A program made the position numbers and the translations under genes. DNA of 64,000 nt, taken from the NCBI RefSeq assembly GCF_009914755.1, contig NC_060926.1, one strand, 5' to 3'. Of the stretch, positions 30,219 through 62,606 are shown in pieces. Under the pieces are notes generated by a model, which was not told the DNA's origin, ran no database searches, and saw only the letters and a list, made by a program, of their open reading frames with translations. The DNA comes from the human T2T-CHM13v2.0 reference genome, Homo sapiens. The number at the start of each line of letters is the position of its first letter. Position 1 is the stretch's first letter.

Positions 30219-30509
<291 letters not shown>

Positions 30510-31183
30510 GAAATACACAAGTCCACATTAGATGCTTGGTATTTAATTTATGCCCACATGCATCTGAAAATCAGTCCACGTATAAAAATTACTAGGTCAA
30601 AGCATGTCACTGAATAGGACAAGAAACACAGCACTAACAACATTAATAAGAAAGAAATGTTTACTCCATTGTAATTCGATCTAACATGTATGGTATCTGT
30701 TTTACATGAGGGTTTTCTGATTCCCTCTCTCTGAAACCTTTGTTAACTCCCTCAGGCAAAGTAAATCAGAATCAGACCAGGTTTGTCTGACCCACCTGTG
30801 CCAGGGTGGGCAGGACCACAGTGATGATCACCAGGTGTGTATGTCTGCCTCTCTATTGAGGGAGACTCTTCTTCTAATTATTTTTCTCTCCTTACAGTTG
30901 TAGAGCAACAGAGAGACATGGCGAATTGGAGAAATTGTGACTCCAAAGGTATTCCCATTCCATTGTCTAATAATCTGAACAGTTGTTTGTTTGTTGTAAG
31001 TAAAATCAAATAGCACCATGCTGGCTGAATTCAGTCTGCAAGCCACACCAAGGACAGCCTTGCTTAGCCCTGGAAGGCAGAGATTTTCCATGGAAGAGTT
31101 GTAACAAGATGTGTGCTTTAAAGCATGAAAAGAGTGAAAATGCAAAACCACACCTAAAAGGTTCTTAAAAATATCAAACATTC

Positions 31184-31642
<459 letters not shown>

Positions 31643-31804
31643 TCACCTGGAAGATGCAAATAAAATAAATAAACAAAGCCCCACCTTAGAGAAGATTGAA
31701 AGTTTGCAGGAATCACTGTAAGTGAAGCAATAATTAATAGTGGCAGAAAAATACGTACAGATATTGCATCCAAGAAAAAAATATTTTCAAAGAACCTTAA
31801 ATAA

Positions 31805-31978
31805 TGAGAAAAGAAAGATGAAAAAAAGGAAGGAGGAAAAGAAGAAATGCAGGGAGAGAATGCAGAGGAGGAGTAAATGGAGGAGGGAAGAAAAGAAAGA
31901 GTAAAGAAGGGAGGAAGGAAGAGAGGAAAAAAGAAAAGGAAGACAGAAAGGAAAGAAGAAAAGGGGGGAAAGGAGGGG
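31805..31978 (+). repeat. GA-rich tract
   Basis: Direct reading. Confidence 0.85.
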
Positions 31979-32119
31979 CTTTGGAATTTAGAAACTTGAT
32001 AGCAGAAATGAAAATCTTAGTAGAAGATTTAAACACAAAGTTAAAGAAATCTTACAAAATAAAGATATAAAAAGTCACATATGAGGGAAAGATAGGGTGG
32101 TTTTGCTTGTTTAAAATAC

Positions 32120-33780
32120 TACACTAGGGACTTTTGTGTCTTGACAAGATGGAGTAATAGAAAGCTTTATCCCCCAACATGAAGAAACCAAATAATCAGA
32201 CAAGGTTATGAAACAATAGTAACAACTGAAAATGTCCCTGTGACCAGAGAGAAATGAGGTGAGCCCTACAAGTGCCTGAGCACACTGACTTCTGGGAGTT
32301 TGCAGACTGAAAGATTAAACAGGAAGAATCCAACAGTCTCCCTGAGTAGAGGGATAGAGCTGGGAGTCCCAGGAGACCAAGGCAGTTGGAGCTAGAGATG
32401 CACAGAGAGAATGTTTGAGTTCTATAGAGAGTCTTCCTTGATCATTGAACCGTGAGAGTGAGAAATGCTACCTAAGGCCAGGTGAAGAAAATTCCAAAAA
32501 GATTAGAGGAACTAGAACCCAGGGTCAGGGTCAGACACTGCCTGGTGTCTGTTCTTACTAGCCAGACTATACAACTTTATAGTCCATTAGGTTGATCCAT
32601 TGCAATTGAGCACTACAAAAGATTAGTGAACTTGAACACACAGCAATAGAAACTACCCAGAAAAAAACACAGGGCAAAAAAGACTGCAAAAAAATAAATA
32701 AAAGACCATCGGTGAGTTGTGGGGCAGCTTCAGTCAACTAATACATATGTAATTAGAATCCCCAGGGAGAAAAGAGAGAAGTGACAGAAAAACTATTTGA
32801 GCTTTTTTCTTTTTCAAAATTTAATGTAAACTATAAATCCACAGATCAAATACAGATTCAAGCACATGAATAACTGTACACCAAAGCACATCATAATCAA
32901 ATGATTCAAACCAGAGGAAAAGAAAAAAAGCAGCCCAGAAATGATACAGGTTACATAGAGAGTAACAACCAGAAGGGGACAGCAGATTTCCCATCAGAGA
33001 TAATGCAAGTGGGAAGACATTGGAGCAACATTGTTAAAGTACTAAAAGAAATAAACAAACAAACTCTGCAACCTAGAATGCTACACGAAGGGAAAATCTC
33101 TCTCAAAAACTAAGGTAAAATATAGACTTTTCTACATATACAAGAGCTGAAAGAATTCATCACCCACCAGCAGACTCACCGTAAGAAATGTTAAAGAAAG
33201 TCATTCAGAAGAAGAAAAAATATTAGACGGAAATAGAGATTTACACAAAAACATGAAAAACAACAGAAAGTGTTGCACACGGTGCCCAGAGCAGTTTATT
33301 TGCAACAGGTAAAATCTGGGACCAACCCAGGTTAAGGACAACATGTCCAGAAGATGAAATACTACTCAACAAAATTGAAAAAGAAATATAGAGGATGGAA
33401 TAAATCATTGATCCACAAACCAACATGTATGAATCTCAAAATAATTTTGCTGCTAATTGAAGAAAGTCTAATAAAAATGGCACAAACTGTATGATTCCAT
33501 TTATCTAAAATTCTAGAAAATAAAAACTAATTTTCTGTACAGTCAGACCTGTGTTTTCCTGGGAATAAAAAGGTCAGGGAGGAGGGCAGAAGGGTGGGAT
33601 TGCAAAAAGACCCAAGGACATTTCTAGAGGTAATATTACAGTTTGCTGTCTCTACTGTGGTGATGGTTTCATGAGATTATACATATGTCAAAATTAATTA
33701 ACTTGTACATTTTAAATGTGTGTACTTTTCTGCAAGCTATTCATACCTCAATAAAGCTGCTAAAGATGGCATTTCTAATT
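32120..33780 (+). mobile_element. Ancient L1M fragments (5'UTR/ORF1 and 3' end)
   Basis: Degenerate ORF1 (ADFPSEIMQVGRHWSNIVKVLKE...QPRML) and 3'-end motifs (ATGAATCTCAAAATAATT, ATACCTCAATAAAGCTG). Confidence 0.75.
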
Positions 33781-34408
33781 TTCCATGCTGTTGTAGAAAA
33801 TAGGGAAAATTTTTAAGATGTCAAAAAAGTCACAGATTATCACTGAGAAAAAATGTATTTTTGATAATTTACATCTTCTTAGGTGCTCAGCATTCTGCTT
33901 AGCATTATATTAAAAGGATTTATCTCAATGTATTTAACCAGTGTGTATTATAAATAAACACATTATACACATACATAAATATATTCTGATTATTTAAAGA
34001 TAATAGTTATAATAAAACCTTTTTATGTGTACCACTGATTATTTTCTTGGTGTATGTTCCAAAATGATCCACGTGTCCAAACACTTTTAAGATACTATAT
34101 AATTGCTCCTAGAAAAGAGATTTTACAGAGAGAAGGATCAGCACAAAAGGAGATTAGTCTAGTCTAAGAAAAAAATAAACAAAACCAGGCATGTACCACT
34201 GAGGAAGGAAGACAATGGAGAAGTGCTATGTCTGCTTCACAGCTGTTTCCCTGAGTGGGTAGACTGTTTGAGATAGAACACCAGGCACTTTCATTCCCAG
34301 GCCTATTCTATTAATACTTTTGCATACGTGAAGACTGACTGAGCCTCCTACTTACTAATAGAAGTGCTTGCTGTGCTTAGGGAAAATTTATTTTAACTTA
34401 AAGGACAT

Positions 34409-35195
34409 TGCAGTAATCTGCTCAGGCTGCCATAAGAAAATACCACAGGCTAGTGGCTTAAACAGAAATTTCTCACGAGGTGGGCATGGTGGCTCACAAC
34501 TGCCATCCCAGCAACTCAGGATCCTGAGGTGGGAGGATTGCTTAAGCCCAGGAGTTTGAGGCTGCAGTGAGCTATTTCAGCCTGGGAAATAGAGAACCAT
34601 CCCAATAAGAAGAAAGAAAAGAAAAAGAGAGAGAAAGAAAGAGAGGGAGGGAGAAAGAAACAGAAAGAAAGAGAAAGGAAGAAAGAGAAAAGAAGGAAAG
34701 GAAAGGGGAAAGGAAAACAGAAAGGGAAGGGAAAGGGAAAGGGAAAGAGAAAGAGAAAGAGAAAGAGAAAGAGAAAGAGAGAAAGGGAAAGAGAAAGAGA
34801 AAGAGAAAGAGAAAGAATTTATTTCTCACATTTCTGGATGCTAGGAAGTCCAAGATCAAGGTGCCAGCCAGGTAGGATTCATTTTAAGCCCTCTTTTCTT
34901 GGCTCATGGGAGGCCACCATCTCACAATGTGCCCATATAACCTCTTCTTTATGCAGACGCAAGGAGGCAAGGGCAGGGAGGGGAAGAGAGAGAGTGCACG
35001 CATGGAAGGGAGAGAACACTTTTGTGTCTGTTCTTATAAAGACACAAATCCTATTGGATCAGGACCCAACCCTTGTGACCTCAGTAATCTTAATTACTTC
35101 CTTAGAGGTCCATCTCCAAATGCAGCCACTCTAGGGGATAGGAATTCAACATAAGAATTTGGAGGTGGGGGGACACAAACATTCAGTCCATAACA
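34409..35195 (-). mobile_element. MLT1A-like LTR with an inserted Alu monomer (34479-34605) and GA-rich tail (34606-34816)
   Basis: The MLT1 sequence is split at AGAAATTTCTCAC / GAATTTATTTCTCAC around the insert. Confidence 0.8.
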
Positions 35196-39877: not shown

Positions 39878-41613
39878 TCTGGTTATAGCATTGAGTATGC
39901 AAGGTCCAAACATTATCACAAGGCACACGGGAAAAAGAGGTCCTAGTAGAGAGCTAACCAGGTCCAAAACAAAGACTAGAATCCATTAAAAAGGGATTGT
40001 AGCCAACTGAGTTTGCATTTTCACCTAATTTGTCAATGATTCTAATTGAGTCTTTAAGCACTCATAAATTCTCCTCTACCTAACTGGAGGTGTTGATCCA
40101 GAAACAGCATGTTTCATTTACAAATGCACAAGCGCCCCTTACTTCAGCCATAAGGACATCAAGAGTTTGTCTATTTTGCATGGCCACTGAGGCCAGAGAA
40201 TTTATGGGCTGCTCTTGGGCTTTTATGGCTCCTACAGTTACCTTTCACCCTTGTTACATCATGATAGAAATATTAAGCACTGATCTTTCAAGAAGGGGAA
40301 CACCGCCAAGCCAAAATAGGCCTCTGGCTATTGCATATTTTATTCCGTTTTTCTAATATAGGATTGCCATGTGCATATTCTTGCCAGTTCTCTCTCTTTC
40401 ATTTTAATCTCCATATGATGGCATAGAGATAAGTGATCTCCTGTTTTGGTATGTGTGATGGAATGCACTTTCTGTAAAAGAGCCCAAATTGGCGATGTCA
40501 CCCAACAATGCTACCCTGTCAGTGGGGTTTAAAAATAACAAATTGGGGACCATTGCCACTATAGTGCATGTTCCTCTCCAGCGCCTGGGGAGGAATAAGC
40601 ATAGCCTGGAGCCACAGAGAAAGTAAAGCCCTGTTCCCTGAAGGGATGGTTCTATGTTGTGATTTATGAGGGTTCCAGCTAAGTTTAGTCCAGGCCTTAT
40701 AAGGTTGCCTTCCCTACATCTAATTCAAGCATCTTTAGAATAAGGATATCCATACTTAGTATAGTCATCCACAGTATTGTTTGGAACTTTACATGCTGGG
40801 AGGGAAGAATCTTTTTGGCAAATATAGTTTTGAAAGATCAGAGACGCAATATGTTCCAGCCAGTATCTTAGACAACCCTCCTTACAGCGGCTATTGGCCC
40901 AGACATCCCCTGTTCATTCACAAATCTGCAGATCACTGTCATTATCAAATATCATACAAGGGTCCAGGATTCCATGTGTGGGCATGTTTGGGAAGGACCA
41001 TGTGCTATTTATTACCTGATAATAAGGTTGGCGAGGGGTGGCATTTCTGCCCGGGGTAGACATTCCCATTGGGAACTCCACCTGGGAGGTCTGGCTAGAT
41101 TGTTAAAATTTTTCCACAGTCTCTCCCAATGTTTGGTGTCACCCTTGTTCCTTCTTAGTCTCCAGATCTCTGTGCTCTCAGCAATTACAAGCATACTGTT
41201 GCAATTATTTAAGGTTTCCCGAGTATGGTCCTTTTCCTTTACTCTTAAAGCAGAGACAGGCATTGGCTATCATTCTATCAACTTCACCTAGTCTAAGGGT
41301 GTGAGTTTTACCATCAGGAGGTGTGTCTTTCTGGGTGGAGTTAAAAATGCTCCCATACCATGTTCCCTTTATACCTATTAGGTCCTTAATGATTTAAGGT
41401 AAAGCCATCAGAGGGAAACCCTAAGATAGTGAGTTCTGAATCATCAAAGAGTCCATTGGTGTTATTAAACTGAGTAAATTGTTCAGGGCAAACCCAGTAA
41501 TCAGTCTTGTTGTAGAGATCGGTAATATCTGATATTGTAGGAGCCAAAGAATGTGAGGCATTGCTACATCTAACAGTGAATGCTAGTAAACTTGATAGTA
41601 ACAAAATCTTCAT
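39878..41613 (-). pseudogene. ERV env pseudogene, truncated after the transmembrane anchor
   Basis: Signal-peptide-like MKILLLSSLLAFTVRCS; degenerate CXXC (YWVC); ISD-like MQNRQTLDVLMAEVRG; CX6CC CAFVNETCC (40130-40104); anchor LGPLFPVCLVIMFGPCILN. Confidence 0.88.
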
Positions 41614-42006
41614 GTTTATCTCTTGCCTGTGACTACTATCCCTGCTATATGAATAATAACTAAGCAAAAGATTATGGCAATTGAGACTCTTTTCCCAATA
41701 TTCCACTTAGAAGGTGCCACAGTATGCAGTCCTACTGCAAAGAGCAAGGTGAGTACAACAATTCCCATATGTGTGAAGTAATAAAGTTCCACTTTAAATC
41801 TTACTCACCGAGATATATAATTTCTTCGTGGGGGTGGTTTATGAGGTTATGAATGGAATCCCATGGATAATCAAAATCTCCCTGTAAGTATGTGACAAAG
41901 AGAAGTTCTAATATCTAACAGCAAATCTCAAGAGGAAAGGTAGAAATGACTTTAGTATCTGGTAAGGAAGGGTGGGATTGAACTGAACAGAGAGTTCCCA
42001 CTCATT

Positions 42007-45000
42007 TACTTATCTTTTGGATTTTCAGTTTGAAATCCCCAGACTTTTCACACTGATATCTGAGATGTTCTTCTGGGATGTCAGGGGTCATTCCAGGCCT
42101 TGACTCGAGTGTGATGAATCCAAGATTCCAGTCCCACAAACTTCACTGCCGAGCAGGTGGAGAGAAGGATGGTATAAGGTTCCTCCCAGCTGGGACCTAG
42201 AGAGGGGAAAAGAGAGGAAAAATCCTTCACCAGTACCAAGTCTCCTTGGTAGAACAGAGGTGGCCCTAGTTCTTGGGGTTGGAATTCTGATAACTGTTTT
42301 AATTCCTGCTAGAACTGGGCCAGGGAGGTTACATGTTTAACCAATTCAGAAGTTCTCTGATGTAATATAAAATCATTGGTAAGGAAAGGCCGTCCATATA
42401 CCATTTCAAAAGGGTGAAGGAACACCCCTTCAACCCCAAATTTGAAGGGGTGCTCCTCACCTGCACTAAGGCTATAGGAAGATAAGCAGTTTAGAGGAGG
42501 TGAGTTTCTTGAGACCACTTCCTGAGGTGTCTCTTAATGATATCATTTGTTTTCTCCACCTTCCCTGAAGACTGCAGTCTTCAAGCACAATGAAGATGGT
42601 ATTGTATGCTCAGTGCTTTTGAGACCCCTTGGGTAACAGCTGCCTTAAATGAGGGGCCATTGTCACTTTGGAGGTATTTAGGGAGTCCAAAACGAGGAAT
42701 TATTTCATTGACTAATGCTTTTATCACCTTAGAGGACTTTCTGTTTGACATAGAAATGCCTCTACCCAGCTAGTGAAGGCATCCACCCACAACAAGAGGT
42801 GCTGAATTCCCCTTATCTTTGGAAAATGGGTAAAATCCATTTGCCAGTCCTCCCCTGGGCAGTTTCCCATTCTTTGTGTTGCTGGGGATGGGGAGATGCC
42901 ATTTGTTGAGGGGATTGTTTTTGAGGCAGATCTTATAAGCATTAACAATTTGTTTGACTGTTTTTGGTAGATATTTACCTGAGAACAACCTCTGGGCTAT
43001 TTGATGAGTTTTATTCTTTCCCAAGTGAAAAGTTTGGTGAAGGATCTTAAGAACTTTCCACTGACTGGAGACTGACAAATAACATTTGCCATCCTCTGAT
43101 TGTAACCATCCTGAGGGCTGAAAAGTGTATCCTCGAGAGGTGGCCCATTCTATCTCTGCAGGAGAATACTGAGGCTTTATTTCCCTTATGGAGCCCTCCC
43201 AAATTAGACAGCCTTCAAGTGTGCTGGGACTTTGGGGTCTTCTTACTGCTGACTTAGCTGTTTGGTCTGCTAGCCTATTTCCTTCAGCTATTTCATCCAT
43301 CCCCTTCTGGTGTCCTTTGCAATGTATCATTGCCACTTCCTGCAGAAGGAAAACTGAGGACAACAATCTATTTCCTAATGGTATTTAATAAAAGAGCCAT
43401 TAGCAGTCAGGGAGTGTCTTTCTTTCCAAATAGCGGCATGAGCATGAAGAACCAGGAAAGCATACTTAGAATCCATATATATGTTAACTGCCTTAGCTTT
43501 GCTTAGTTCAAGCACCCTCATGACAGCAATTAACTCAGCTAATTGAGCACTGTACCTGGTGAAAGAGGTGTGCTTTTAATGATGTCATCCAGGGTGACTA
43601 TTGCATACCCTGCCCTACAGGTTCCTTGTTCTATAATAGAACTTTACCTGTAAAGACAGCCCAGTCTCAGTTTTCTAGAGGAGTTTCCTGGATGTCCTCT
43701 CTGGCTGCATAGGTTTGCATCACTATTTTTTCACAATCATGTTCAGGTTCTCCAATTTCATCTGGAAGGAAAGTGGCTGAGTTCAGGAAAGGACAGGCCT
43801 TTAACTGAACTGCAGATCCCTCCAGCAGCAAAACTTAATATTTGAGGAGGCGATTATCTGTTAGCCAGAGACTTCCTTTAGAGGATAACAGTCCCTTTAC
43901 ATTATAGGGGGTGTAAACAATCAGGTCATTCCTCATGCTCAACTTAGTCACTTCTGGCACCAGCAAAGCCACCACTGCAACTGTTCAGAGGCAAGCTGGC
44001 CATCCTTTAGCCATCAAGTCAAGTTCCTTGCTTAGGTTACTGGATGGCTGCTGGGCTGGGCCTCAGGCCTGAGTTAAGACTCCCAAAGCTATCCCCTTCC
44101 TTTCTGAGATGTGCAGATTAAATGCCCTCCCTATGGAAAGACTGAGGGTTGATGCTTTAAGTAAAGCTTGCTTTAGCTGTTTAAATGCCTTCTGAGCCTT
44201 AGGTTCCCAGATCAGGGAGTGAGTTTTAGCTATTGAGTTTCTTTTATAAGGTGATATGAAGGGTGAACTATTTCACTGTACCCAGGTATCCACAATCTGC
44301 AAAAAACCCCAAAATCCTCTTAGCTGTTTGAGGGTTTTGGGAAGGGGGAAGGAGGAAAGAGGCTGAATCCTCTTCTCATCTAATGTGCTGGTTCCTTCTG
44401 ATAAGACTAGACCTAGGTACCTTACCGAAGTTTGACAGAGCTGAACTTTAGATTTGGAAATTTTATATCCACTACCTGCTAGAAAATTAAGAAGAGCCTC
44501 AGTGCATTTTTGAGAAAGTCCCTCAGTTGGGACACAGAGGGGAATATCATCTACTTATTGTAAAACTTTAATCTGAGGATGAGAGAATTCAGAGAGGTGT
44601 TTTGATAATGCTTGCCCAAACAAGTGGGGGCTGTCTCTGAATCCCTGAGGCAGTACTGTCCAAGTCAACTTGGTAGCCTGATTGGAGGGATCCTCTAAAG
44701 CAAACAAGTATTGGGAGGTGCAATAGCATGCAGAAAAAGACTTCCTTTAGGTCCCACACTGTGAACCATTTATTTCCCTCAGGCATTTGAGTTAGCAAAG
44801 TATTAGGATTACAAACCACTGGATGGATTGGAATTACAGCTTCATTAATGAGATGGAGGTCCTGAACTAGTATCCATTCCCCACTGGGTTTCTGTACCCC
44901 TAATAGTGGAGTGTTACAAGGGTTGTTGCAAGGTCCAAGAAGGTCCTATGCCTTTAAATTATTAATGATGGCTTAAAGTCCTTGAGGGGGTACTGCATTA

Positions 45001-45492
45001 GGGGGTACTGCTTCTAGTTAGGGAAGGAGGTGGGATCCTTAAGGTGAATCTGGACCAGGATAGCAGTTGCAGCCTGACCAATTTTCCTGTGACTTGCCCA
45101 CACCTCTGGGCTAATATTGATTTCTACTAAGGGGAGACAAAGAATCTGTCCTGGAACCGTAAGGATGGTGGCTCCCATATGGGCTAGAATATCTCTAGTA
45201 AAAGACTGGGATGCTCAGGCATGATTAAAAAGGCATGAGTAAATAGCAATTCCCCCCTACTACAACCGAGGGGCTATGAAAAATATTGGGTTAAAGACTT
45301 TCCTTAGACATTCACCATGGTTGTGATATGGGAGGAGAGAAGGTCAGGACTGGAGAGGAGAACAGAGAGGCTGGCTCTGGTGTCCAGAAGGAAGTCTACC
45401 TTTCTCCTTTCTACGTCCAGAATCAACCAGGGATCCTGGATAGTAATGGCAGTTCGAGTTGCTGGAGCCAAGAAATTGAGCCCTAGGACCCA
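42007..45492 (-). pseudogene. ERV pro-pol pseudogene
   Basis: Protease VDFLLDTRA (~45380, DTG mutated); RT TVLPQGFRDSP (~44640) and *VDD (44557-44546); RNase H HCKGHQKG...GNRLAD; integrase EDWQMDFTH. Confidence 0.92.
42088..42196 (-). CDS. CMPK2: ERV-derived alternative terminal coding exon of CMPK2 (SQLGGTLYHPSLHLLGSEVCGTGILDSSHSSQGLE*)
   Basis: Acceptor TTTTTCCTCTCTTTTCCCCTCTCTAG|G lies in the integrase 3' region. Joined to a phase-2 CMPK2 donor it gives 35 open codons to TGA at 42090-42088. Consistent with my recollection of a 366-aa CMPK2 isoform. Confidence 0.7.
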
Positions 45493-46886
45493 TTAGTCCT
45501 GCTGGACCATCTGGGAGACTGGCTCTGGACCTAGCAACCTATATCTCCAGGGACAGTTTGACTTCCAGTTGTCTCCACCACAGGGTGGACAGGGTTGAGG
45601 TGGCTTCTTCTTGCTGTCTGGGCAACCCCTTTTAAGTGCCCCAGTTTGCCACAGTGGTAGTGATTAGCAAATGCACCTGGGGGATTCTGGATTTTATAGG
45701 CCTCTAATGTGACCAGTAGAGCCTCTGTTTTTTCTCATATTTCCTCTTCTTCTCCTGGGCTTCCTCCTGGACTCTATTGTAAAAGACCAAAGTAGCCACT
45801 TTCAAGAGGTTCTCTAGAGTACTATCTGGACCTATGGCCAGTTTCTGCAACTTCCTTTTGATATCGGGGCTGCCTGGGTAATAAACTTGTCTTTTAAGAT
45901 TAGCTTTCCGTCAACTGAATCAGGAGATAGGGAGATATGTTTCACTAATGCCTCTCTCAGCCTTTCTATAAACGCTGAGAAATTTTCATCTGGTTTTTGA
46001 TCTATCATGGACAACTTACAATAATTAAGAGGTTTGGTACTTGTCCTTCTCAAGCCTTCCAGTATGCACATCCAAAAGTGTTTTCTATTCAACTCATCTA
46101 TGGGATCATTGGCATTCCAACTGGGATTTTCAAGGAATACTGCCTCCCTCCCTATTGGTAATAGAGATTCTGCCACTTGTTCACCTTCTTTTTCTCTTTT
46201 GCTCTCCCTTCTTTTAGACTTCTTATCTTCCAGACTTTTAGACTGGCTATAGGAGATACATTGTTCATCTCTGAATGTTTCTGCTTCCTGTTAGGTTTTG
46301 GCTTAAAAGTAGCATAGCATCTCTCCATGTAAGATAAAACACTTACGTTAAATTTTGGAAAGACTCTATACATCTATTAGGGTCATCAGAGAACCTGTCC
46401 AAAGTTGGGAATTCCTTAAGTGGCACAACCAGAGGAACTAATGATTTGGCTATTGGGAGCCCTGAATAAGTGAGGCAGGTAGGGCACCCAGAAGTTGCAT
46501 TTGAGGATTCCCCAAAGGGTTTGACTCTCTGATTTTGGGGAAGTATCTTTTGTAGCCTTGTCTGACATGGCTGCCAAGAGTGTGGGGTCAACTGTACAAT
46601 GCTTACAAAGATTTGGGTTGTCTCGCAGGGCAAAGAAAGCTTGTATATAGTAAACCTTGGACCATTTACCCTCCTGCCTACAGAAAATATCTAGTTGTTG
46701 AATAGTATATAAAAAAAGACTTCCCTCAGAAAGCCAGGTTTTTTCATCCCCAAGATGGTAAAAAGGCCATGTCCTTGTACAATAGAATATGAGCCATTTT
46801 ATCATCAGAACCTCAGCATCAAAGGAGTTCCAGTGATTCAGAATGCACTCGAGGAGATTACAGACTGCAGATGGTTTGTTACCCAT
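45493..46886 (-). pseudogene. ERV gag pseudogene
   Basis: HERV-W/9-like MA start MGNKPSAVCNLLECILNHW; capsid/MHR segment DQKPDENFSAFIERLREAL; two degenerate zinc knuckles (..HCGKLGH.. and CPPCGGDNWKSNC); ends QQD-TAA. Frameshifted. Confidence 0.9.
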
Positions 46887-48383
46887 CTAATAAGAGATGG
46901 GAGACAAGGCATCCCTCAGTCCCCTTCCTCCTCTCTGCGTTACCCAGGGTGGAGGGAAAGAGAGAAAAGGCATTCCTCTTCTCCTTCCTTCTCTCCTCTG
47001 GGTCCCTGCAGCCATCATAGGTGCCGCCCCATGGATGCAAGCATATCCTTCACCCATGGATCCAGAGGAGCCAGTAGGGCAGGACTAGTCATGCTCACCT
47101 GCATAAGGCTCTAGCTTTCTGCCCTGCTGGATTCCTAGACCCACTCAACCCAAAAGGCTCCCAAAGTACCCTAAGAGGCCTAGGAGAGATTCTGTAGTAG
47201 TTGGGTTTGGGCAAGACTCTTTAATGCAGGGAATGTCCTAATACCATCTGTGGCTTCCCTTGCTATAGCCCCAGTGAAAAATCAGAATTCCACAGAATGG
47301 GACTGATTAACTTCCAAACATAAAATTCCTTTTTTAAAAAATCCCATTGTAGTTGAATGCAGAACAGGTGCCTCAAATGAGCATAAGAATTGAATGGCTG
47401 CCATTCCTTTGATGGGGAGAGTATTGAAGCTAAGATTTGTCTTATCAGGATGGCTACCTCCCAGCTGTTGAAAGTGGAGATTTTTTTTGTTGTTTGGTCT
47501 ACAAATAGGACATGGGCTCTGATCACTGATAGAGGAACGTAAAAGGGAAAAGAATTGGGAAACAAGGAGTTTGGGGCAGAGGGATGATAAGGCTCCCCAG
47601 GGAGAAAAATTCCTTTCCACTAGGTGGCATTGTAGGGTTAGAAATGTTAGGTAAAAACTCTGACTCCAAATTCTTTTCAGGCAAAAGTTAGAAAGAGAGA
47701 TTTGGGGTTTGATAGGTTGCCCCCATAGCAAGCCCAGACCGTAAGAAAATTAACTTCTCTCATAAAAGAACTGTTTAAATTCACTGGACAATGCTGAGCT
47801 ATTATATGGAGGAAAAAAACAACCCAAAAGGAGACGAGGATATTCACTCGGGGTGAAAGATCCTCCCATATGGTGCCATGAATGTCTATTATTGAGGGAT
47901 AGAAAGGCCCTTACTAGGTGAAAATTTAGACTGAAGTCTTGAATTCCCTGTTTCCAGGAAATCACAAAAACAACAACTCTTTGAATTACATTCTTGATTA
48001 TTAAGATACCAACTAACTCTACTCCGCAAGATTATATCCCTAGGTTACAAAAACACCCACAACATTGCATAGAAAGAAGAGGTTGGAGACATGATAGCCA
48101 CAAGAAGAAAGAAGGAAAATGCAATAGGAAAAGATTGCAAGTCTTTGTGCTGACTCCCTGATGGGCTGTAGGGGACTGGAGTTAGTCCAAGGGCCTTCAG
48201 ATAACACTGAGGGGGTAGCCCCAGCCAGAAACCTTCAGTTGCCCTGGGACCTTCCAATCCCACATGATGGCTAGGCCCTCTGTGAAAGCAAACTAGACTG
48301 GAATAGACAAGAAGCCTCAGAAATGCAAGTAAAGGTGAAAGTTAAAGGTCAACTCTTAATCATCCTTCTGATGAATTCCCTTC

Positions 48384-48401
48384 TTCCCAGCCAATGCACC
48401 A
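48384..48401 (-). promoter_or_regulatory. Primer-binding site complementary to tRNA-Gly
   Basis: TGGTGCATTGGCTGGGAA versus TGGTGCATTGGCCGGGAA, the complement of the tRNA-Gly 3' end plus CCA: 17/18 match. Confidence 0.85.
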
Positions 48402-48433
48402 AAATGTGTTGTAATCTTACCAATGCACCAAGA

Positions 48434-49182
48434 TGTAACAGTCTCCCGTTGTCTGAGATAATATCCAGAGTTCTTTGTCCTAATTCCAAGAAGATTAAGG
48501 AGTGCAGACAACAAGGGTGAAGTTGGAGTGAAACTTTAATAAGCGAAAAAAGAAAGCTCTCTGCCAGCAGAAGGGGGAGCTCTAATGGGGTGCCCACTAT
48601 GAGGCCAGTTGTGGGGGTTTTACGGGCTGGAAAGGGGAATGAATGTGCTTAGTCTACCGGCTGTCTTGGAGAAGGCATGACTCAGCTTGGCCAGGCACCC
48701 TGGCCCAGGACCAATCAGAAAGCCTGGCCTAGGACCTTTGCCTGGGACCAATCAGGGGCTGAAGTTATGATTCACAGAGGCCAGACTCACAGTCCAAAAA
48801 CTGGCAAGGAAAGTGCCCACTGGAACTAACTGGAGCCCACTGTGCCCACGCCCACAAAAGGAGAAAAAAACTTTTTCCTGGGAGCCTGCTGACTATACAA
48901 AGGACAAAGGTGTTTTTATGCCAGGACTTGTTCCCTCATCTGAGTGAGCCAGAGGTTTGTGCAAGCTTTTATCTGAATGGGCCAGAGGCTCTCCTATCTG
49001 TGCAGCCGTAGGCATGTCTCCAGGCACAACACCCTGTGCTAGTTCCCTTATCAGTGCCTGCAGCTTGATTTTTTCCCCAGGCTGCTTTTTACATTATGTG
49101 GGGTGAGGCACTGACTGGTGGGCCGAGGGCTCTCTGGGGACCCTTCCCTTGCTATTTACCTAAGGCAAGCTAATTCCTTTTA
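48434..49182 (-). mobile_element. 5' LTR (~750 bp, LTR27/MER61-like)
   Basis: The minus strand begins TAAAAGGAATTAGCTTGCCTTAGG and ends GACTGTTACA directly before the PBS. It contains two CCAAT boxes (48711, 48748), AP-1 TGACTCA (48678-48684) and ATTAAA (48540-48535). Confidence 0.8.
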
Positions 49183-49834
49183 GTGTCATCCTCATCTCTT
49201 GGTCCTTAGATGGCTATCACCTCTGAATACAGCCGATATGAAGAGTTAAAGGGGAAAGTGATAATATCCCCTTGACATTTCAGGTATTCCTTCTGCTCAC
49301 ATACTATTGGCAAGAAACTAGCCAGTCGCCCACCTCCAGCTGTTAAGGGAGCCTTGGAAATGCACTAGGAATTATTGGCACCCATGTACCAAGCTAAATA
49401 TTACATTACCATGGAAGAAAGGAAGAATAAATTTTGGGGTAACTAATGGTCTATCACAGGAACAAAACCAAAGCTCGTCTTGCAATGAGCAGAGCCAAGC
49501 AAAGGGTTACTTGCCATCAGTTTTAGGGTAGGAGGTGCTATTTTACAAAATACTCGTAAGTCATATATACCTATCAGTATATAAAAAGTCCAGGTGTAAA
49601 AAGAATGAATTACAAAATGTCTTTAATATTTGTAATGAGGAAATGATATGTAAAATAAAACAATAGCCCTCCCCTTTCTCTGAAAGCACTCTGACCACAA
49701 ATTCCACTTAGCCTGCCAGCTCACACCTTTCAACTTCCTTTACCAAAATTTCCCTCCTTTACATCACAATATTAAAAGGGGAATCTGAGAAAGCACTTTT
49801 CAGACAAATCAATATGTACCCAGGATGACAGCAT

Positions 49835-51367
49835 AGATTAGTAAACCACAGCAAAGTTTATTCATGTGCCAGGGACATAAAGATACATTAATTGTTTGTT
49901 TTTCTAGGCTGCCAGTATAAGCTTTTCAAAATGTTTAAAGTAAATAAAACCAATAATACAGCTAGATACCACATTGCAAAGAACCCTAATGCTATTTATC
50001 AGCTTTAAAATACTTTCAACTGAAATCAATTACATTTTAATATACACATATTATATAGAAATTACCTATAGCTCTTTTAAAAATCCTATGACATTAACAT
50101 GAAACTTTATTAGAATTTAAGATTCTATATGCAGACCTGATAAAGCCTTAAATTTAATTATTTTGGAGTAATGTCTTCTTAAGAAATGGTAGATAGGATA
50201 AAATAATTTACAGATTTATCTGCCTTTGAACTGGAAGGAATTTTAGGTAATCACCTGGTTCAACCTACTCCCTAAAGTCACACAGCTCTATAATTTCCCC
50301 CTCACTCAGCTACTTTTTTCTGTCTAAAGATATGTCAAAGCGATTTCATATGTAATCATGAGACATTCAAGTGCAAGATAATTTACCAAGAAATCCCACT
50401 CCAAGATCCACTGTACTTATTTAACAAGACAAATTAAGTTTGTGTAATGAAAATACACAACAAACATTGCATTTAGCGTTTTGACTCCACTTTTAATTAA
50501 TGAATCATAGCTCCTATGCTGAGGAAACATATTATGTATAGATTAATATAAATAAATTACTGGATTGGCTAAATGAAATGCATCCAGTTCAATGGAAAAT
50601 GTGCATTCTATTCAGAGCCATACTTTAGAAAAAAAGAAAAGAAATATAAATAAGCAAAATATAATTCAGAGAAGGTTGGTATATTTGCAGTTGGAGCATC
50701 TTGGCTTGAATGTCTTTATATATGACTCAGAAGCCTATCAAAAGGGCTCTGAGCCTCAGACACAAGATCAATGCCTTCTTTGTAAGTGTTCCTTACCCAA
50801 AAATGGCTCTGCAGGAGTGTCCTTGGGCAGCCAGGACACATAGACAGCCTCTGCAGGAACACTTGGCTCTAGAATTTGGGACTGAGGGAGATGCAGCGAG
50901 CCCATCATGACGAGTGCAACCAGATGTGGAAGAAGCCAATGTGGGCATGTCACGATCTCATCAGCATGCCAGTGTAGGAGAAGCAGAGGCTCCGGGGTCT
51001 CCCTGCTGATCTGGAAGATCTTGTCTGCTGCTTCTGTACACCTGGTGCTGTCTGAGTAAGACAGGTCTTCCAGATATTTGGTAGTGATTAAGTGAAACAT
51101 ATGTTCCAAGAAAATGTTTACTATGCCAGGAAGAAAGCAATCGCTGGCCTCTCACTGGAACATGATGAGAGGGACCTTTGTGATGACGGGTCCATCAGTC
51201 AGAAGAGGGTACGATGGCTGAAGTAAAATTAAGATGCCTGGTCTCCAGTTTTCTGCCACACAACATGCTTGTAGAACAGAAATTTGGGAACACTGCATAA
51301 CAAATGGTGGATGTAGATGTTTCAAACAACATCTAATCTAGTTAGACGTGGCACCTGGCCAGAGTAA
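49835..51367 (-). other. CMPK2: CMPK2 3'UTR (~1.5 kb)
   Basis: Follows the stop codon and is AU-rich in its distal half. AATAAA on the minus strand at 50111-50106 and 49862-49857. The exact cleavage site is inferred. Confidence 0.8.
49857..49862 (-). terminator. Main CMPK2 polyadenylation signal AATAAA
   Basis: tttatt on the + strand, ~1.5 kb after the stop, with GT/T-rich sequence downstream on the minus strand. Confidence 0.7.
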
Positions 51368-51491
51368 CTACGGTTCACTAAAACTATTCTGGATTAGGCT
51401 TAATACCGTCTGCAGGACCTTTTCTCTGGAGGGGCTGGCATCAACCACATGGCAGCCAGGATTCTCCATCCGCTGGTAGGACATTTCTACC
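51368..51491 (-). CDS. CMPK2: CMPK2 terminal coding exon 5
   Basis: TGTCCCCAG|G acceptor. Translates (K)VEMSYQRMENPGCHVVDASPSREKVLQTVLSLIQNSFSEP with TAG at 51370-51368. Confidence 0.96.
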
Positions 51492-52967
51492 CTGGGGACA
51501 GGCAAAACACAAAGAGTTGGTCTACTTTTTCACACAGCTATTTGCATTAATGTTCTTTTCCTACCATAGTATAAATAGCTTGAAGCAAGCTTCCCATGTC
51601 ATTTATCTCACTGTAACTAGCTTTGCCCACAGAAGACGTTCATGCATTTTGTTTAACAAATAATAAATGAATAATAATGTTTAATAGCTAGCACTTGTTG
51701 AATACCTGTTTTCTGCCAAGCATTAGCATTTTGCATGATTTTTCTCATTTAATTCTCAAAGTAACCTTAGGAGGGAAGACTATTGTCATCCCTGTTTTGC
51801 AGAGAAGGCAACTGAAGCTCAAAGAATTTAGGTAATTTGTTCAGTGGCAAATTTCCCCCAAGTCTGTGCCCTGAATAATTTTCATACAAGCCACAGTCCT
51901 TAATATATGCATGGGACTCTTCTAATATTTTGCCAGAAATCTACATATCCTTTCCATGCTAGCTAGCCTTCATGTGTATACAGAGTGACTAGTGCCTGTT
52001 TCTTTATGGAATCCTTATAGCACTGTGGTTAAAATAGGGGTGTCGAGGTGGATCGTCTGCATTCACAACTCTGCCTGACCACTTCCTAGCCAAGTGAATT
52101 GGTCAAATCTCTTCTCCTCTCTGTGTCTCAGTTTCCTGTTCTGCAAAATGAAGACTGAAACCGTACCTTCCTTGCAAATGTTCACTGAAGTTTAATGGAA
52201 TTAATACAAGTAAATTGCTTAACATAATATCTTTACCCACAGCAGCTACCATTATTTATAACATTACTATGTTATGATAACAGGGCTATCATTGTTCAGT
52301 TAGAGAAAATATTTCTGCTTCAGTTTTTAAAGGCAGTGGTGTAGAACTGATTCATACTCAGTCATGAGGCAGGAGGCCTGGCCAGACTCTCTTCTGCAGT
52401 CGTGTTTATAACTTTCTAATTAAAACAAAAACACTGGCTGCAAAATCAGAAAGATTTTAATCCCGGTTTTACTAGTGAATAGTTATGTACATTTAGACAA
52501 ATCACTTAATCCTTTGAGCCTTAAAGTTGTAAACTGTAAAATACGGCTAATGTTTTCCTCACAAGGATGACATAACATCAGTAAAATGCCTGACACACGG
52601 GAAGCATCTAATAGGTAGATGTTACTATGAGCTCGTTATCTAGTGCTCTGTGTGATTATACTATGACTGGGGAAACTGAGGCACAGAGACACTTACTGTC
52701 TTACCCAGGTGCAGCTGCTCCTAGCACAGCCAGGATCAGTGGCAGGGTCTGATCCCTAGTCCGATGACCTTTGCTTTAAGATAACAATGCTGCAGCCCTG
52801 TGGTGACAAGCCCATTGGAAGGGGCTGAAGTAACTTAGAGGATGTTGTCTCTTGTGTTTGAAAACTGGAAACAATATCACTTCCTCACAATCCTAAAGCC
52901 AGTGCCAGTGGTTCATCTCCCTTCAGGAATGCCTGCCGCTCACATTGCATTGCACTGGGACACCTAC

Positions 52968-53201
52968 TTTTGACGAAACACACTGTTGGCCTCAAGTTCT
53001 GCTTCTTCCCTGGTCTTCTCCATGCCCCGGCCCTGCAGCCTCTGCAACCTCTCCTCAGGACTCACAGTGAGCAGCAGGATAAGGTCAGGTTTGAGCAGGT
53101 CCTCTGGCCACTGGTACACAGGGTGATGGGCTGGGGGCAGGTGCTGGAGACCCCCACTCACCTCAGTGGCTATGGCATAGGTGGCCGTGCTGTGCCAGTA
53201 C
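52968..53201 (-). CDS. CMPK2: CMPK2 coding exon 4 (234 bp)
   Basis: CTCAG|G acceptor, then YWHSTATYAIATEVSGG...EANSVFRQ, then AA|GTAGGT donor. The phase matches the previous exon (AG|G = Arg of the DRY motif). Confidence 0.97.
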
Positions 53202-54399
53202 CTGAGAAGGAATGGGGTAGTGAGTTCTCTGTCTGCAGAAGAAGTCAAAGTAGCATCTGAAAATCAGCAGCCAGGAATGATGAAACCAGGGTTGGCTCTA
53301 CAGAAGTTTTTCTAGTATTGCATAAGTTAAATAAAATTAAATTTTATAAACTAAAAAAAGTTATACAATATTGTTTAAAAAATAAAATTGACAACAGTAA
53401 TAATGCAGTGTGTTCTTCACACAGCTCCATTGACCCATCTCAAACTACCATTTAGTGTGGCCTCCCCTCTGTCATCACATCTTTTTGGTCCTGCTGTCCG
53501 CATTCCTCTATGAAAGAATGGAGGGTGACAGGGGACAATGAACCTGTTTGGCAGTTCATTTGTATTTAAGGGCTGTGTCTTGGCAGACTAAAATCCTGGA
53601 AAGGCCATGTCAGTTCCTACACTGTTTTCACTTGAACTTGCCAATGAAATTCACATTCTGGGACCCCTGAGGTAGAAGCCTCTTTGTTTCTCCCAACTAT
53701 CCAGTCTGCTGATGGTGCCTCAGTATGAGACAGGGAGACAAATATGCCCTGCCCAGCTCCATGAAAGTCCTCCCTAAGCAAGTCAGTCGCTCCTTCTGCT
53801 GGCTGTTTTAAAAAGTGATTTTGGGGGAGGAAAACAAAGTTATTACCATACACAAAAGTCAAATCAGTCTCTATTTAAAAATGCCTAGTGGCTTCCTACA
53901 ACCTACAGGAAATGCTTGGTCTTCTGGTAAGACACAGAACATCCCTCCTAGTCTGCACCTGCTTACCTTTTCCTCTGGTGAGAGTGAGGTTCTCAGCCAG
54001 CAAAACTCTCCTCTCCCTTCAGACTCCTAGGAAGCCCCCAAACAGAATTGACTGTTTTCTCCTCTGTGCTCTCAAAACCCTTTCTACGTGACTCTACTGA
54101 AAAACTCCTCATTGCAAATCAGAACTACTTGTTATAAGTGTAATATCTATTGTCTCCTCCATTAGGTAATTTCTTGAGTGGGAAATCTTTTTTAGTAATG
54201 CATGTCTGGCACATAATAGATATGCAATGAAAGAATGTTATTTGGGTGTATAAATGAATAAATGAATTAGAACGATTTCATTTATCAGCATAGTTTATTA
54301 TACTCTTGCCCTGTTCATGCCATCTTCCAATTTTAAAGGACTAAATGGACAATTCAGATCCAATATAAAAGGACCATCACTCACAATAAATATTTATGA

Positions 54400-54783
<384 letters not shown>

Positions 54784-55176
54784 TAAAATTTTGATCATTT
54801 TAGAATTGAACTCCTCTCCACAGTGAAAAGTACACAGTGGTATCCACATAATAAATTCCCTGTGTTACCTGAACTGTACATTATTCTGCCTGTGTCCCCC
54901 GCCCCACCTGTTTTGTACATGTAGGTAAAAGTCATCTAAGCTAATATAGCCTCCATCTCCTCATCTGGAAAACACAGATCATGCAAGGTTTGTTTTCCTT
55001 CCATAGTTGTTACAAATACAGACAAGTGCTTAAAAAAAACTGTATCACACTGTTACTATAAGATAAATATCTAATTCTTATCAGACACTGGTTATAACTA
55101 AAGCCGGATCATTGCAAATTATGATAACAGAACACAGGACAGCACTGAAAAGGACACAAGTAAAAAATTCACTTGG

Positions 55177-55431
<255 letters not shown>

Positions 55432-56560
55432 AAAAATTCACTTGGGAGTTGATAATCTCAACACCATCCATCCTTCAAAGCCCTTGTTCACCTCCAAAAG
55501 TGTGCTCTGAGAGCTTCAGGCCACTGCCAGCTCCTGTGAATTCTGCCTGGACACCTTCCTATGTGTTACTTACCCAACTCCTGTTACTCACAAACTTGTA
55601 CTTTCACTCTCTCTGCCAGATGAATTTTGTCCCTCAAGCTCAAAAAAAGCCAATTAGGGTCTCAGTTTTCTTTTTCTGGTACTTAAACTATAATTTACAC
55701 CATGGTCAGCACATGCTCCAGATTCATTGAATTAAATACCTACCTATGAATATAGAGTCTGATATTATCTTATTTTTAAAGTCTTCTTTATTGTAGAAAA
55801 ATCACCAGCAAGAATAGATTTTTAAAGGTAATGGGGTGATTAAGACTCCAACCTTAACCACAGTCCCCGTTAAAAATTACTGTCTCTCATATTTTTCAGC
55901 TAGATAATGGTACTGTCTAAAATGGATTTTATTAAAATCTTTAAACATGAATAAAATCCACAAAGACAACAAATAACTGCTCTTTTCTTTTCATCTGACA
56001 AGGTGATACAGCATTTCTTTAAAGAACTAAATTGCAGGCAATTCACACACACAAAGAAGACAAATCAAGGGAAGAATTAAGGACCTGTTTCCTATAGAGT
56101 TCTCCCATTGAAAATACGGCTGCTTGTTTTAAATAATTGCACCCTTAGCCCATCAATTTCAGACGCTTCCCACTATTTAGTATTCTCCACTCCTGCTATC
56201 AGGGAAGCCACATTAGTTCAAATCAAAAGCAATTTGCCAACACATTATACACTGCTCATATAATAATGCTTTATATTTTAATAGCAATTTCCTATTTTCA
56301 GGGTACTTCCACACACATCCACTCACTGAATCATCATCACAACTCTTGACAGTAGGCAGGGAAGGGGGCATGAGTATCCCCACTTAACAGATCAGAAAAC
56401 TGGGGGACAGAGTGCAGAAATCCCTGCCTGCACACAGTGGCCAGTGCTGCTTCAGGATCCGCAGGCATCCTAGGACATAATGGACCTCGAAAGTCATACC
56501 CTACTAGGAAAACCTTAGTCTTTCTCTTGGAAATAAAGGGGACTGTATCAAAAAAGATGT

Positions 56561-57044
56561 CAATATGGTTTGGTTCTTTGTCCCCACCAAAATCTCATGC
56601 CAAAGGGTATTAGGTTGGTGCAAAAGTCATTGCGGTTTTTGCCATTAATAATAATATCAAAAACCACAATGACTTTTGCACCAACCTAATAATTCCCATT
56701 GTTGGAGATGAGGCCCTGTGGGAGTTGATTGGATCATGGGGGCAGACACCCCCCTTGCTGTTCTCGTGATGGTGAGTTGTCATGAGATCTGGGTGTTTAA
56801 AATGTGTAGCACTTCCCCCTGCTCTCTCGCCTCTGCCCCTGCCCCTGCCCCTGCCTCTCTCTCTCTCTCTCCTGTTGCCATTGTTTCCTCTTCAATTTCC
56901 ACCATGATTGCAAGTTTCCTGAGGCCTCCCCAGCCATGCCTCCCATATAGCCATGCAGAATTGTCAGTCAACTAAACCTCTTTTCTTTATAGATTACCCA
57001 GTATCAGGTACGTCTTTATAGCAGTGTGAGAAAGAACTAATACA
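56561..57044 (+). mobile_element. MSTA-like MaLR LTR
   Basis: ATATGGTTTGG...CCCCACCAAAATCTCATG start and GAACTAATACA end. TSD GATGT/GATAT. Confidence 0.88.
56610..56689. mobile_element. Complete 80-bp MADE1 with TA TSD, nested in the MSTA LTR
   Basis: TA|TTAGGTTGGTGCAAAAG...CTTTTGCACCAACCTAA|TA. Confidence 0.95.
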
Positions 57045-58804: not shown

Positions 58805-59129
58805 TTTTCTTCTTTTTTGTTTTTTGTTTTATTGTTTTTGGGATTTTTTTTTTTTTTTTGAGACAAGGCCCCTCTTGCTGTGTCATCCTCTTGCTTTGTC
58901 ATTGCAGCCTCGACCTCCTGGGCTTAAGGGATTCTCCTTCCTGAGTCTCCTAAGTAGCTGGGACTACAAGTGGGTGCCACCATACCCAGCTATTTTTTTA
59001 AATATTTTTTGTAGAGACAAGGTCTCACTATGTTATCAAGGCTGGTCTTGAACTCTTGGGCTCAAGCACTCTTCCCACCTCAGCCTTCCAAAGTGCTTGG
59101 ATTACAGGTGTGAGCCACTGCACCTGACC
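58805..59129 (-). mobile_element. AluJ
   Basis: Diverged reverse Alu with a long T-rich tail. Confidence 0.9.
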
Positions 59130-59143
59130 TAAAGCTATTTCTT

Positions 59144-59413
59144 TTCTTTTCTTTTTTTTTTTTTTTTGAGACGGAGTCTCGCTGTCGCCCAGGCTGGAGT
59201 GCAGTGGCATGATCTCGGCTCACTGCAGGCTCCACCCCCTGGGGTTCATGCCATTCTCCTGCCTCAGCCTCCCGAGTAGCTGGGACTACAAGTGCCCACC
59301 ACCTCGCCCGGCTAATTTTTTGTATTTTTAGTAGAGACGGGGTTTCACCGTGTTAGCCAGGATGGTCTCGATCTCCTGACCTCATGATCCGCCCACCTCA
59401 GCCTCCCAAAGTG
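59144..59413 (-). mobile_element. 5'-truncated AluY
   Basis: Reverse AluY with TSD AAGCTATTTCTT. Confidence 0.95.
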
Positions 59414-59972
59414 AAGCTATTTCTTACAGGTGAATTTTTAAAGTATAAATCAGTTTATGTCTCTCCTTTATCAGAAACATTCCAATGGCTCCCCAGTGCA
59501 CTCAGAATAAAATCCATTCTATGAATGGCCTACAAGCCCTACAGACCTGCCCCAACCTTCCTCTTCCCATTCATCCACAAAGCACCTCCACATCTACTAT
59601 GTTCTCAGAACATATAACATTTTCTAGTTGTCAGATATGTTAGCTTATTTCAGTCTTAGCTTCATTCTTGCAGATTTCTTTCTCCACAGTGCTTTCTGTT
59701 AACCCGGGAATTTTCACATTTGCCTTTTTTTTTTTTAAATCAGGGCTCTGACTAATGGTGCTTTCTCAGACAGGCCTTCCTAAACCATATCTAGTGGAGG
59801 GTTAGCCGTTTTTTAGCACATTACTTTGATTTTTCCTCTTCCCTGCATTTATCATGCTTTGATATTATCTTACCTCATCTTATGTATTATTTTATGTATT
59901 TGTTCACCTGATACTTTTCTTCTCCTATAATGTTAAGTTTGCTCCATGAAAATAGGGACTTATCTATCTCAT

Positions 59973-62603: not shown

Positions 62604-62606
<3 letters not shown>

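What the first reader, a model, noticed from the sequence alone, without database searches (positions are those of the whole stretch)
41801..42196. ERV pol-env junction as a cassette linking CMPK2 to the NRIR lncRNA
Seen: a near-consensus donor CG|GTGAGT at 41809, 387 nt after the acceptor, defining a 388-nt exon made entirely of proviral sequence. Recalled: NRIR, a regulator of the interferon response, starts in about this interval on the same strand. Inference: NRIR's first exon is ERV-derived, and some NRIR may be CMPK2 read-through. That would explain their co-induction. Splicing out at 41809 would place the TGA at 42088 about 280 nt upstream of a junction, making the chimera an NMD target.
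Basis: partly seen in the sequence, partly recalled or inferred. Interest (0 to 1): 0.7.

Follow-up and report, generated by a model that had tools for sequence, protein, structure and literature searches.

The report
Old retrovirus exon bridges CMPK2, NRIR
A decayed retrovirus just downstream of the human interferon gene CMPK2 supplies the splice sites for both an alternative CMPK2 last exon and the first exon of the lncRNA NRIR; CMPK2-NRIR fusion RNAs are already published, and NRIR's annotated start sits exactly on a splice-acceptor-like site, so part of what is measured as NRIR is likely the spliced tail of CMPK2 transcripts, predicted to be degraded by nonsense-mediated decay.

Summary
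On the minus strand, acceptor 42196, TGA 42090-42088 and donor TCG|GTGAGT at 41809 define a 388-nt stretch inside a catalogued, broken HUERS-P3-type provirus (RetroTector chain 466). RefSeq uses the acceptor for an alternative CMPK2 last exon and the donor for NRIR exon 1. CMPK2-NRIR fusion RNAs were reported in 2021 (TILT1-3), so the read-through is not new; that preprint does not mention a retrovirus or NMD. New here: (1) NRIR's RefSeq 5' end (41982) lies exactly behind a pyrimidine run plus CAG, a context found at 31 of 9,299 proviral positions, so exon 1 looks like an internal exon; (2) the CMPK2 alternative end (42071) has no AATAAA/ATTAAA; (3) the founding NRIR paper reports 3' RACE only, and its qPCR primer sits in the ERV exon; (4) the provirus keeps its 5' LTR and a conserved leader donor (47099) but has lost its 3' LTR, so an LTR-driven RNA is a rival source. 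Against: TILT and NRIR differ in kinetics and size of induction, and both papers argue NRIR is independent. The share of NRIR that is read-through, and NMD, are untested. This is a new member of a known kind.

The parts
48407..49188 (-). 5' LTR of the provirus (782 bp), same sense as CMPK2, ~650 nt past the CMPK2 3' end; ATTAAA at 48540, GAS-like TTCTTGGAA at 48492. Family probably LTR25 (inferred from the LTR25-int label on the adjoining internal sequence; not tested).
   Evidence: 49 other match rows at 72-87% identity, several being pieces of one copy; 3 of 7 compared copies end at 48406-48407; motifs; label
48384..48401 (-). Primer-binding site
   Evidence: Same 18-mer as the PBS of RetroTector chain 466
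47093..47101 (-). Leader splice donor CAG|GTGAGC just upstream of gag; likely the provirus's own major donor
   Evidence: AG|GTRA in 17 of 24 paralogous leaders, one of which did not align at the site; -11.1 kcal/mol with U1
42005..47737 (-). Broken gag-pro-pol (RetroTector: gag 8 shifts and 5 stops; pol 11 shifts and 10 stops)
42197..42220 (-). Acceptor A1 inside the integrase C-terminal domain, where gamma-type retroviruses have their env acceptor; used by a CMPK2 alternative exon
   Evidence: hub annotation; pyrimidine run >=7 of 8 in 26 of 29 paralogues, AG at the same or next position in 21 of 29, two of them misaligned
41809..42196 (-). 388-nt ERV cassette exon (long form)
   Evidence: its two halves are annotated to CMPK2 (42196-42071) and NRIR (41982-41809)
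42088..42090 (-). In-frame TGA reached from CMPK2 exon 3 (366-aa product) or exon 4 (444-aa product), 279 nt before donor 41809
42071..42071 (-). RefSeq 3' end of the alternative CMPK2 exon; no AATAAA/ATTAAA between 42300 and 41500 and no A-rich tract behind it; likely an incomplete end
41983..41996 (-). Acceptor-like site A2 (aactctctgttcag|) directly before the RefSeq 5' end of NRIR
   Evidence: same features at 31 of 9,299 proviral positions and 3 of 388 in the exon; AG in register in 4 of 29 paralogues
41809..41982 (-). NRIR exon 1 (174 nt), in the pol-env spacer; likely the short form of the cassette exon; an in-frame TAA lies 143 nt before the donor when it is entered from CMPK2
   Evidence: annotation
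41803..41811 (-). Donor TCG|GTGAGT
   Evidence: GT in 12 of 29 paralogues, with GTG 9, GCA 7, GCG 1, as at a decaying CpG
39882..41613 (-). Broken env, cut short at ~39882; no 3' LTR; AATAAA at 41013 and 40344
   Evidence: homology ends at query position 819-823 in most long hits; LTR sequence follows in 4 of 7 paralogues but not here; three env-region ORFs had no Pfam hit
30094..34946 (-). NRIR exons 2-4; exon 4 starts at an antisense-Alu acceptor
   Evidence: annotation
49834..62886 (-). CMPK2 exons 3, 4 and terminal exon 5 (AATAAA 49862); both upstream donors are in frame with A1 and must skip exon 5 to reach it
   Evidence: annotation

Best explanation
The stretch 42196-41809 is a piece of a broken HUERS-P3-type provirus whose splice sites carry a CMPK2 alternative exon and NRIR exon 1, and it likely works as one internal cassette exon (388 nt, or 174 nt from a second acceptor-like site) that splices a minority of interferon-induced CMPK2 transcripts onto the NRIR exons, giving RNAs predicted to be NMD targets. 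Steps: (1, shown) the provirus lies in the same sense as CMPK2, from 0.65 kb past its 3' end. (2, inferred) Polymerase running past the CMPK2 poly(A) site reaches the proviral acceptor, and exon 3 or 4 sometimes splices to it, skipping terminal exon 5. (3, annotated) A CMPK2 transcript uses 42196, and NRIR uses 41809. (4, published) RT-PCR products join CMPK2 and NRIR exons. (5, inferred) With the 3' LTR gone and no AATAAA/ATTAAA in the exon, the RNA leaves by donor 41809 and ends in NRIR exon 4. (6, predicted) The stop lies 279 or 143 nt before a junction, so translated copies would be degraded, which would leave the nuclear-enriched RNA that was named NRIR.
For: NRIR's RefSeq 5' end coincides with YAG plus a pyrimidine run, a context at 31 of 9,299 proviral positions (noticed after the fact). 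No TATA-like word lies in 42100-41960, and CpG o/e is 0.14 around it versus 0.71-0.84 at the CMPK2 start. The CMPK2 alternative end has no AATAAA/ATTAAA, and the two annotated ends are only 88 nt apart. [quoted passage not shown] Kambara 2014 reports only 3' RACE, with one forward RACE primer, and its NRIR qPCR forward primer starts at 41837 inside the ERV exon, so it cannot tell chimeras from a separate RNA. NRIR and CMPK2 both depend on JAK and STAT2.
Against: TILT and NRIR differ: after Mtb, NRIR rises >200-fold by 24 h versus 14-fold for TILT; with LPS TILT peaks earlier; the authors report promoter-like elements upstream of NRIR. Kambara calls NRIR independent because it is nuclear while CMPK2 mRNA is cytoplasmic, and cites an ISRE ~4 kb upstream; my scan finds one 1-mismatch ISRE-like site at 46277. 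NRIR knockdown raised a CMPK2 amplicon in exons 2-3, so chimeras cannot be a large share of CMPK2 RNA. A2 is a modest acceptor and no junction read at 41982 was seen. The TILT exon map and primers are images that I could not read, so which acceptor they use is unknown. NMD is untested.
Confidence: 0.62

Rival explanations
1. NRIR is mainly an env-type subgenomic RNA of the provirus itself: it starts in the 5' LTR, splices from leader donor 47099 to 42196 or 41982, then out at 41809 into host exons. CMPK2 chimeras are a by-product.
For: The 5' LTR is full length. The leader donor is strong and conserved in 17 of 24 paralogues. GAS-like words lie at 48492 and 47960; none of 7 compared LTR copies has the full 48492 word. 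A locus named HUERSP3_2p25.2 is induced log2 7.4-9.8 by four arboviruses in astrocytes (coordinates not confirmed). It would also explain why the NRIR 5' end is an acceptor.
Against: No transcript with a 47099 junction is in the hub's annotation. The LTR is old (72-87% identity to other copies) and CpG-poor (o/e 0.15). It has no ISRE at <=1 mismatch. The induced HERV signal is equally explained by CMPK2 read-through. Two GAS-like words are weak evidence (4 such sites in 26 kb).
Confidence: 0.15
2. NRIR has its own interferon-responsive start at or near 41982 inside the provirus (or at the second annotated start further downstream). The chimeras are a minor, separately regulated species and the AG before the 5' end is coincidence.
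For: Both primary papers favour independence. NRIR and TILT differ in timing and size of induction. Kambara mentions a second annotated isoform with another promoter, not detected in their samples. An ISRE-like site lies at 46277.
Against: No 5' mapping is reported in the text or primer table that I read (two supplementary files were unreadable). No core-promoter features lie at 41982. The chance of a 5' end landing on such an acceptor context is 0.3-0.8%. An IFN-induced signal was also reported in mouse at the syntenic region, where this primate ERV family is absent (recalled), which fits run-on from Cmpk2.
Confidence: 0.2

Closest known systems
TILT1-3 (Prabhakar/Arumugam et al., bioRxiv 10.1101/2021.03.22.436546; RNA Biol 2021;18:604, journal version not held)
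   Same: Spliced CMPK2-NRIR fusion RNAs, described as exon 4 of CMPK2-203 fused with exon 1 of NRIR-202; probably this very exon (whole preprint text read; figures and primer table not visible).
   Different: The preprint has 0 occurrences of retrovir, ERV, LTR, NMD, nonsense or transpos, treats NRIR as separately promoted, and does not note that its 5' end looks like an acceptor.
NRIR / lncRNA-CMPK2 (Kambara 2014, PMC4176326)
   Same: Same exons; the defining qPCR crosses the 41809 junction.
   Different: Described as an independent nuclear ISG; 0 occurrences of retrovir, transpos or LTR in the main text; 3' RACE only.
HUERSP3 noncanonical chain rvnr 466 (Vargiu 2016, PMC4724089, supplementary table 1)
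   Same: Same provirus: hg19 chr2:6987014-6978473 = window 48401-39860, same PBS.
   Different: A catalogue entry only; it lists no LTR and says nothing about splicing to host genes.
ERV exonisation and read-through (conjoined-gene) transcripts; env splicing of gamma-type ERVs such as ERVW-1 (leader donor to an acceptor before env; Gimenez 2010, PMC2853125, passages)
   Same: A host or LTR donor captures an acceptor at the 3' end of pol in a sense-oriented provirus.
   Different: Here env is broken and is spliced out; the exon ends at an internal donor and leads into non-coding host exons.

Membership tests
HUERS-P3-type class I ERV | LTR-PBS-gag-pro-pol-env order with gamma-type domains | tested here: met
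   env rests on RetroTector SU/TM motifs and DNA similarity, no Pfam hit
HUERS-P3-type class I ERV | Classified as HUERSP3 by pol similarity | tested here: met
   Published table row at exactly matching coordinates: noncanonical, mosaic LTR25-int / HUERS-P3 / MER52-int; not re-derived by my own tree
HUERS-P3-type class I ERV | Two flanking LTRs (complete provirus) | tested here: not met
   No second LTR in the window; homology ends at ~39882. It is a 3'-truncated copy.
Read-through (conjoined) transcript | One spliced RNA holds exons of two adjacent same-strand genes | not testable with these tools
   Published by RT-PCR and sequencing; no RNA data here
Read-through (conjoined) transcript | Usable splice sites that skip the upstream gene's terminal exon | tested here: met
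   annotation
Native retroviral env acceptor (A1) | Lies in the 3' end of pol and is conserved among related proviruses | tested here: inconclusive
   Inside MLVIN_C; pyrimidine run in 26 of 29 and AG in 21 of 29, but integrase codons could also preserve the run and use in the paralogues was not seen
EJC-dependent NMD substrate | Stop more than 50-55 nt before the last junction | tested here: met
   279 nt (A1) or 143 nt (A2) before 41809, with more junctions behind
EJC-dependent NMD substrate | Stabilised by UPF1/SMG1 inhibition | not testable with these tools
   needs experiment
Independent lncRNA gene with its own promoter at 41982 | Capped 5' end and promoter marks at the annotated start | not testable with these tools
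   Sequence shows an acceptor-like context, no TATA-like word and low CpG; CAGE data not available

The most novel reading that the evidence does not exclude
NRIR is not an independent gene at its annotated start. Most of it is the ERV-spliced tail of CMPK2: a primate provirus captures CMPK2 pre-mRNA, skips the terminal exon and sends it to NMD, acting as a cis brake on an interferon-induced enzyme. The NRIR knockdown and biomarker literature would then need re-reading.
Probability: 0.3. Interest if true: 0.65.

Novelty: new member of a known kind. Interest (0 to 1): 0.36.

Why it matters
NRIR is widely cited as a regulator of the interferon response (69 held papers name both NRIR and CMPK2), with opposite effects reported in hepatocytes and monocytes. 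If its first exon is an internal ERV exon fed by CMPK2 or by the LTR, its induction needs no promoter of its own, standard qPCR cannot separate the species, and the RefSeq CMPK2 isoform ending at 42071 is probably a 3'-incomplete, NMD-prone RNA. Public long-read and CAGE data could settle this. The components (ERV exonisation, read-through) are familiar and the chimera is published, so the interest is moderate.

Tried and rejected
3' LTR: none in the window; so no LTR-LTR dating. Poly(A) signal for the 42071 end: no AATAAA/ATTAAA in 42300-41500; weaker variants lie only downstream of 42071. Strict ISRE in 38000-64000: none; at 1 mismatch, two sites in the provirus, versus 6 in the 10 kb around the CMPK2/RSAD2 starts. 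Idea that donor 41809 is a conserved retroviral donor: not supported, GT in 12 of 29 copies. Pfam support for env: 0 hits in three ORFs. Mapping Kambara's mouse primers to the window: nothing better than 4 mismatches. Which upstream exon RefSeq joins to 42196: not in the table, and the isoform search was uninformative; both are in frame. Matching TILT amplicon sizes (400/800/1000 bp) to exon sets: A1 and A2 differ by 214 nt, which fits 800 versus 1000, but without primers other sets fit too, so it is not used as evidence. Coordinates of HUERSP3_2p25.2: not found. Journal version of the TILT paper: not held. tRNA scan: none. A first scan for CMPK2 exon 2 printed nothing; it was found through a published primer.

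Full report
Observation. The window is human chr2 (hub annotation). The donor is 3rd of 400 GT sites in the provirus by U1 duplex energy, a rough measure, and much the best within 800 nt of the acceptor. RefSeq uses 42196 for a CMPK2 alternative exon (42196-42071) and 41809 as the end of NRIR exon 1 (41982-41809).

The element. Pfam finds Gag_p30, RNase_H, Integrase_H2C2, rve and MLVIN_C in order on the minus strand; 7 of 15 ORFs sent had a hit, and the env-region ORFs had none. An LTR at about 49188-48407 has many matches of 72-87% identity. A row of the Vargiu 2016 supplementary table (PMC4724089; passages and table rows seen) lists chain 466 at hg19 chr2:6987014-6978473, a 'deviating HUERSP' classed as noncanonical HUERSP3, with gag and pol full of shifts and stops. 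Its PBS is the 18-mer at window 48401, and the same offset maps Kambara's NRIR end (hg19 6,980,595) to 41982, so the match is exact. Pol ends at 42005; the likely env start is 41613 (signal-peptide-like ORF). The exon is therefore the integrase tail plus the pol-env spacer. Homology with other copies stops at about 39882; LTR sequence follows a few hundred bases further on in 4 of 7 paralogues but not here, so this copy lacks its 3' LTR and the poly(A) site in it.

Splice sites in related copies (29 paralogues). A1 (42196): pyrimidine run of at least 7 of 8 in 26; AG in register in 6 and one base later in 15, two of which are misaligned. This fits the usual env acceptor at the end of pol in gamma-type retroviruses (established knowledge), though integrase codons may also preserve the run. 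Donor 41809: GT in 12, with GTG 9, GCA 7 and GCG 1, the pattern of a decaying CpG, so the GT is likely a by-product of decay and not a maintained viral donor. A leader donor at 47099 reads AG|GTRA in 17 of 24 paralogues and is likely the provirus's own major donor.

The annotated ends look artificial. The CMPK2 alternative exon ends at 42071 with no AATAAA or ATTAAA in 42300-41500 and no A-rich tract. NRIR's RefSeq 5' end at 41982 lies directly behind aactctctgttcag. YAG with at least 7 of 8 pyrimidines occurs at 31 of 9,299 proviral positions and 3 of 388 within the exon; I noticed this after the fact, and a bare AG would occur at 6-8% of positions. There is no TATA-like word and CpG o/e is 0.14, against 0.71-0.84 at the CMPK2 start. 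I read this as two nested forms of an internal exon, 388 and 174 nt, sharing one donor. No junction read at 41982 was seen; this is inference.

Coding consequences. CMPK2 exons 3 and 4 are both in frame with A1, giving 366 or 444 aa instead of 449, ending in SQLGG...QGLE. Entry at 41982 meets a TAA 143 nt before the donor. Both satisfy the 50-55-nt rule once the RNA splices at 41809. RNA that is not spliced there could end at AATAAA 41013 or 40344 and escape junction-dependent NMD.

Literature. The preprint finds different kinetics (Mtb: NRIR >200-fold, TILT 14-fold at 24 h; LPS: TILT earlier) and mentions promoter-like elements upstream of NRIR; it never mentions ERV or NMD. Kambara 2014 (PMC4176326; results parts 3-4, passages and primer table read; two supplementary files unreadable and possibly relevant to 5' ends) calls NRIR independent because it is nuclear, cites an ISRE ~4 kb upstream, reports 3' RACE only, and shows JAK/STAT2 dependence shared with CMPK2. 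Its NRIR forward primer starts at 41837 in the ERV exon and the reverse lies in exon 3; its CMPK2 amplicon spans exons 2-3. Knockdown raised that amplicon, so chimeras are a small share of CMPK2 RNA even if they are a large share of NRIR. A locus named HUERSP3_2p25.2 is induced by four arboviruses in astrocytes (PMC9694637, table passage); family and band match, coordinates unconfirmed. Searches for a printed ERV link: NRIR + endogenous retrovir, 13 papers, none on this locus by title, seen as a listing except passages of one; CMPK2 + HUERS, 0; lncRNA-CMPK2 + read-through, 0; five fusion or read-through phrases, 0 occurrences in the 7 of 8 papers listed; HUERSP3_2p25, 2; one five-term search, 1 unrelated paper. 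The library lacks most subscription papers and the journal version of TILT. Passages of PMC6371048, PMC12684935, PMC12392576, PMC9705363, PMC5820368, PMC8914027, PMC8112243, PMC9936219 and PMC2853125 added no 5'-end data.

Mechanism and rivals. Most likely (0.62): a minority of induced CMPK2 transcripts skip terminal exon 5, enter the provirus at 42196 or 41982, leave at 41809 and end in NRIR exon 4; NMD is predicted. Rival A (0.15): an LTR-started, env-type spliced RNA using donor 47099. Rival B (0.20): a true start near 41982, with chimeras minor. These can coexist; junction counts and capped 5' ends would apportion them.

Verdict. The feature is real and the ERV origin of NRIR exon 1 is secure. 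The chimera is published, and ERV exonisation with read-through is a known kind of event. What is added is the link between the catalogued provirus and TILT, and the sequence case that NRIR's annotated start is a splice boundary. Interest 0.36.

Noticed in passing
window 30451-30469 (-), NRIR exon 4: shRNA #1 of the founding NRIR paper targets Alu sequence: the 19-mer has 282 exact matches in the genome, an off-target concern. shRNA #2 lies in exon 3; its uniqueness was not checked.
   Followed up: partly
window 30495-30212 (-): NRIR exon 4 begins at an antisense-Alu poly-T acceptor, so two of four NRIR exons derive from transposed elements.
   Followed up: partly
window 48384-48401 (-): RetroTector types this PBS as P; from memory it is complementary to the 3' end of tRNA-Gly. 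Not tested.
   Followed up: no
window 48492-48484 and 47960-47952: Two GAS-like palindromes in the LTR U5 and leader; none of 7 compared LTR copies has the full 48492 word.
   Followed up: partly
window 48540 (-): The LTR's ATTAAA is in CMPK2 sense, 1.3 kb past the CMPK2 signal at 49862, and could end extended CMPK2 transcripts.
   Followed up: no
window 41616-41804 (-): A 62-codon hydrophobic open stretch lies in the pol-env spacer just after the donor; no Pfam hit.
   Followed up: no
window 30200-29600 (-): No AATAAA/ATTAAA near NRIR's annotated 3' end; AGTAAA at 30131 and AATACA at 29987 and 29739. Kambara's 3' RACE end lies ~350 nt beyond the then-annotated end.
   Followed up: partly
near RSAD2, outside the window: A second HERV locus, MER101_2p25.2, is reported as induced and correlated with RSAD2 in lupus and arbovirus data; probably also carried along by host ISG transcription.
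   Followed up: no
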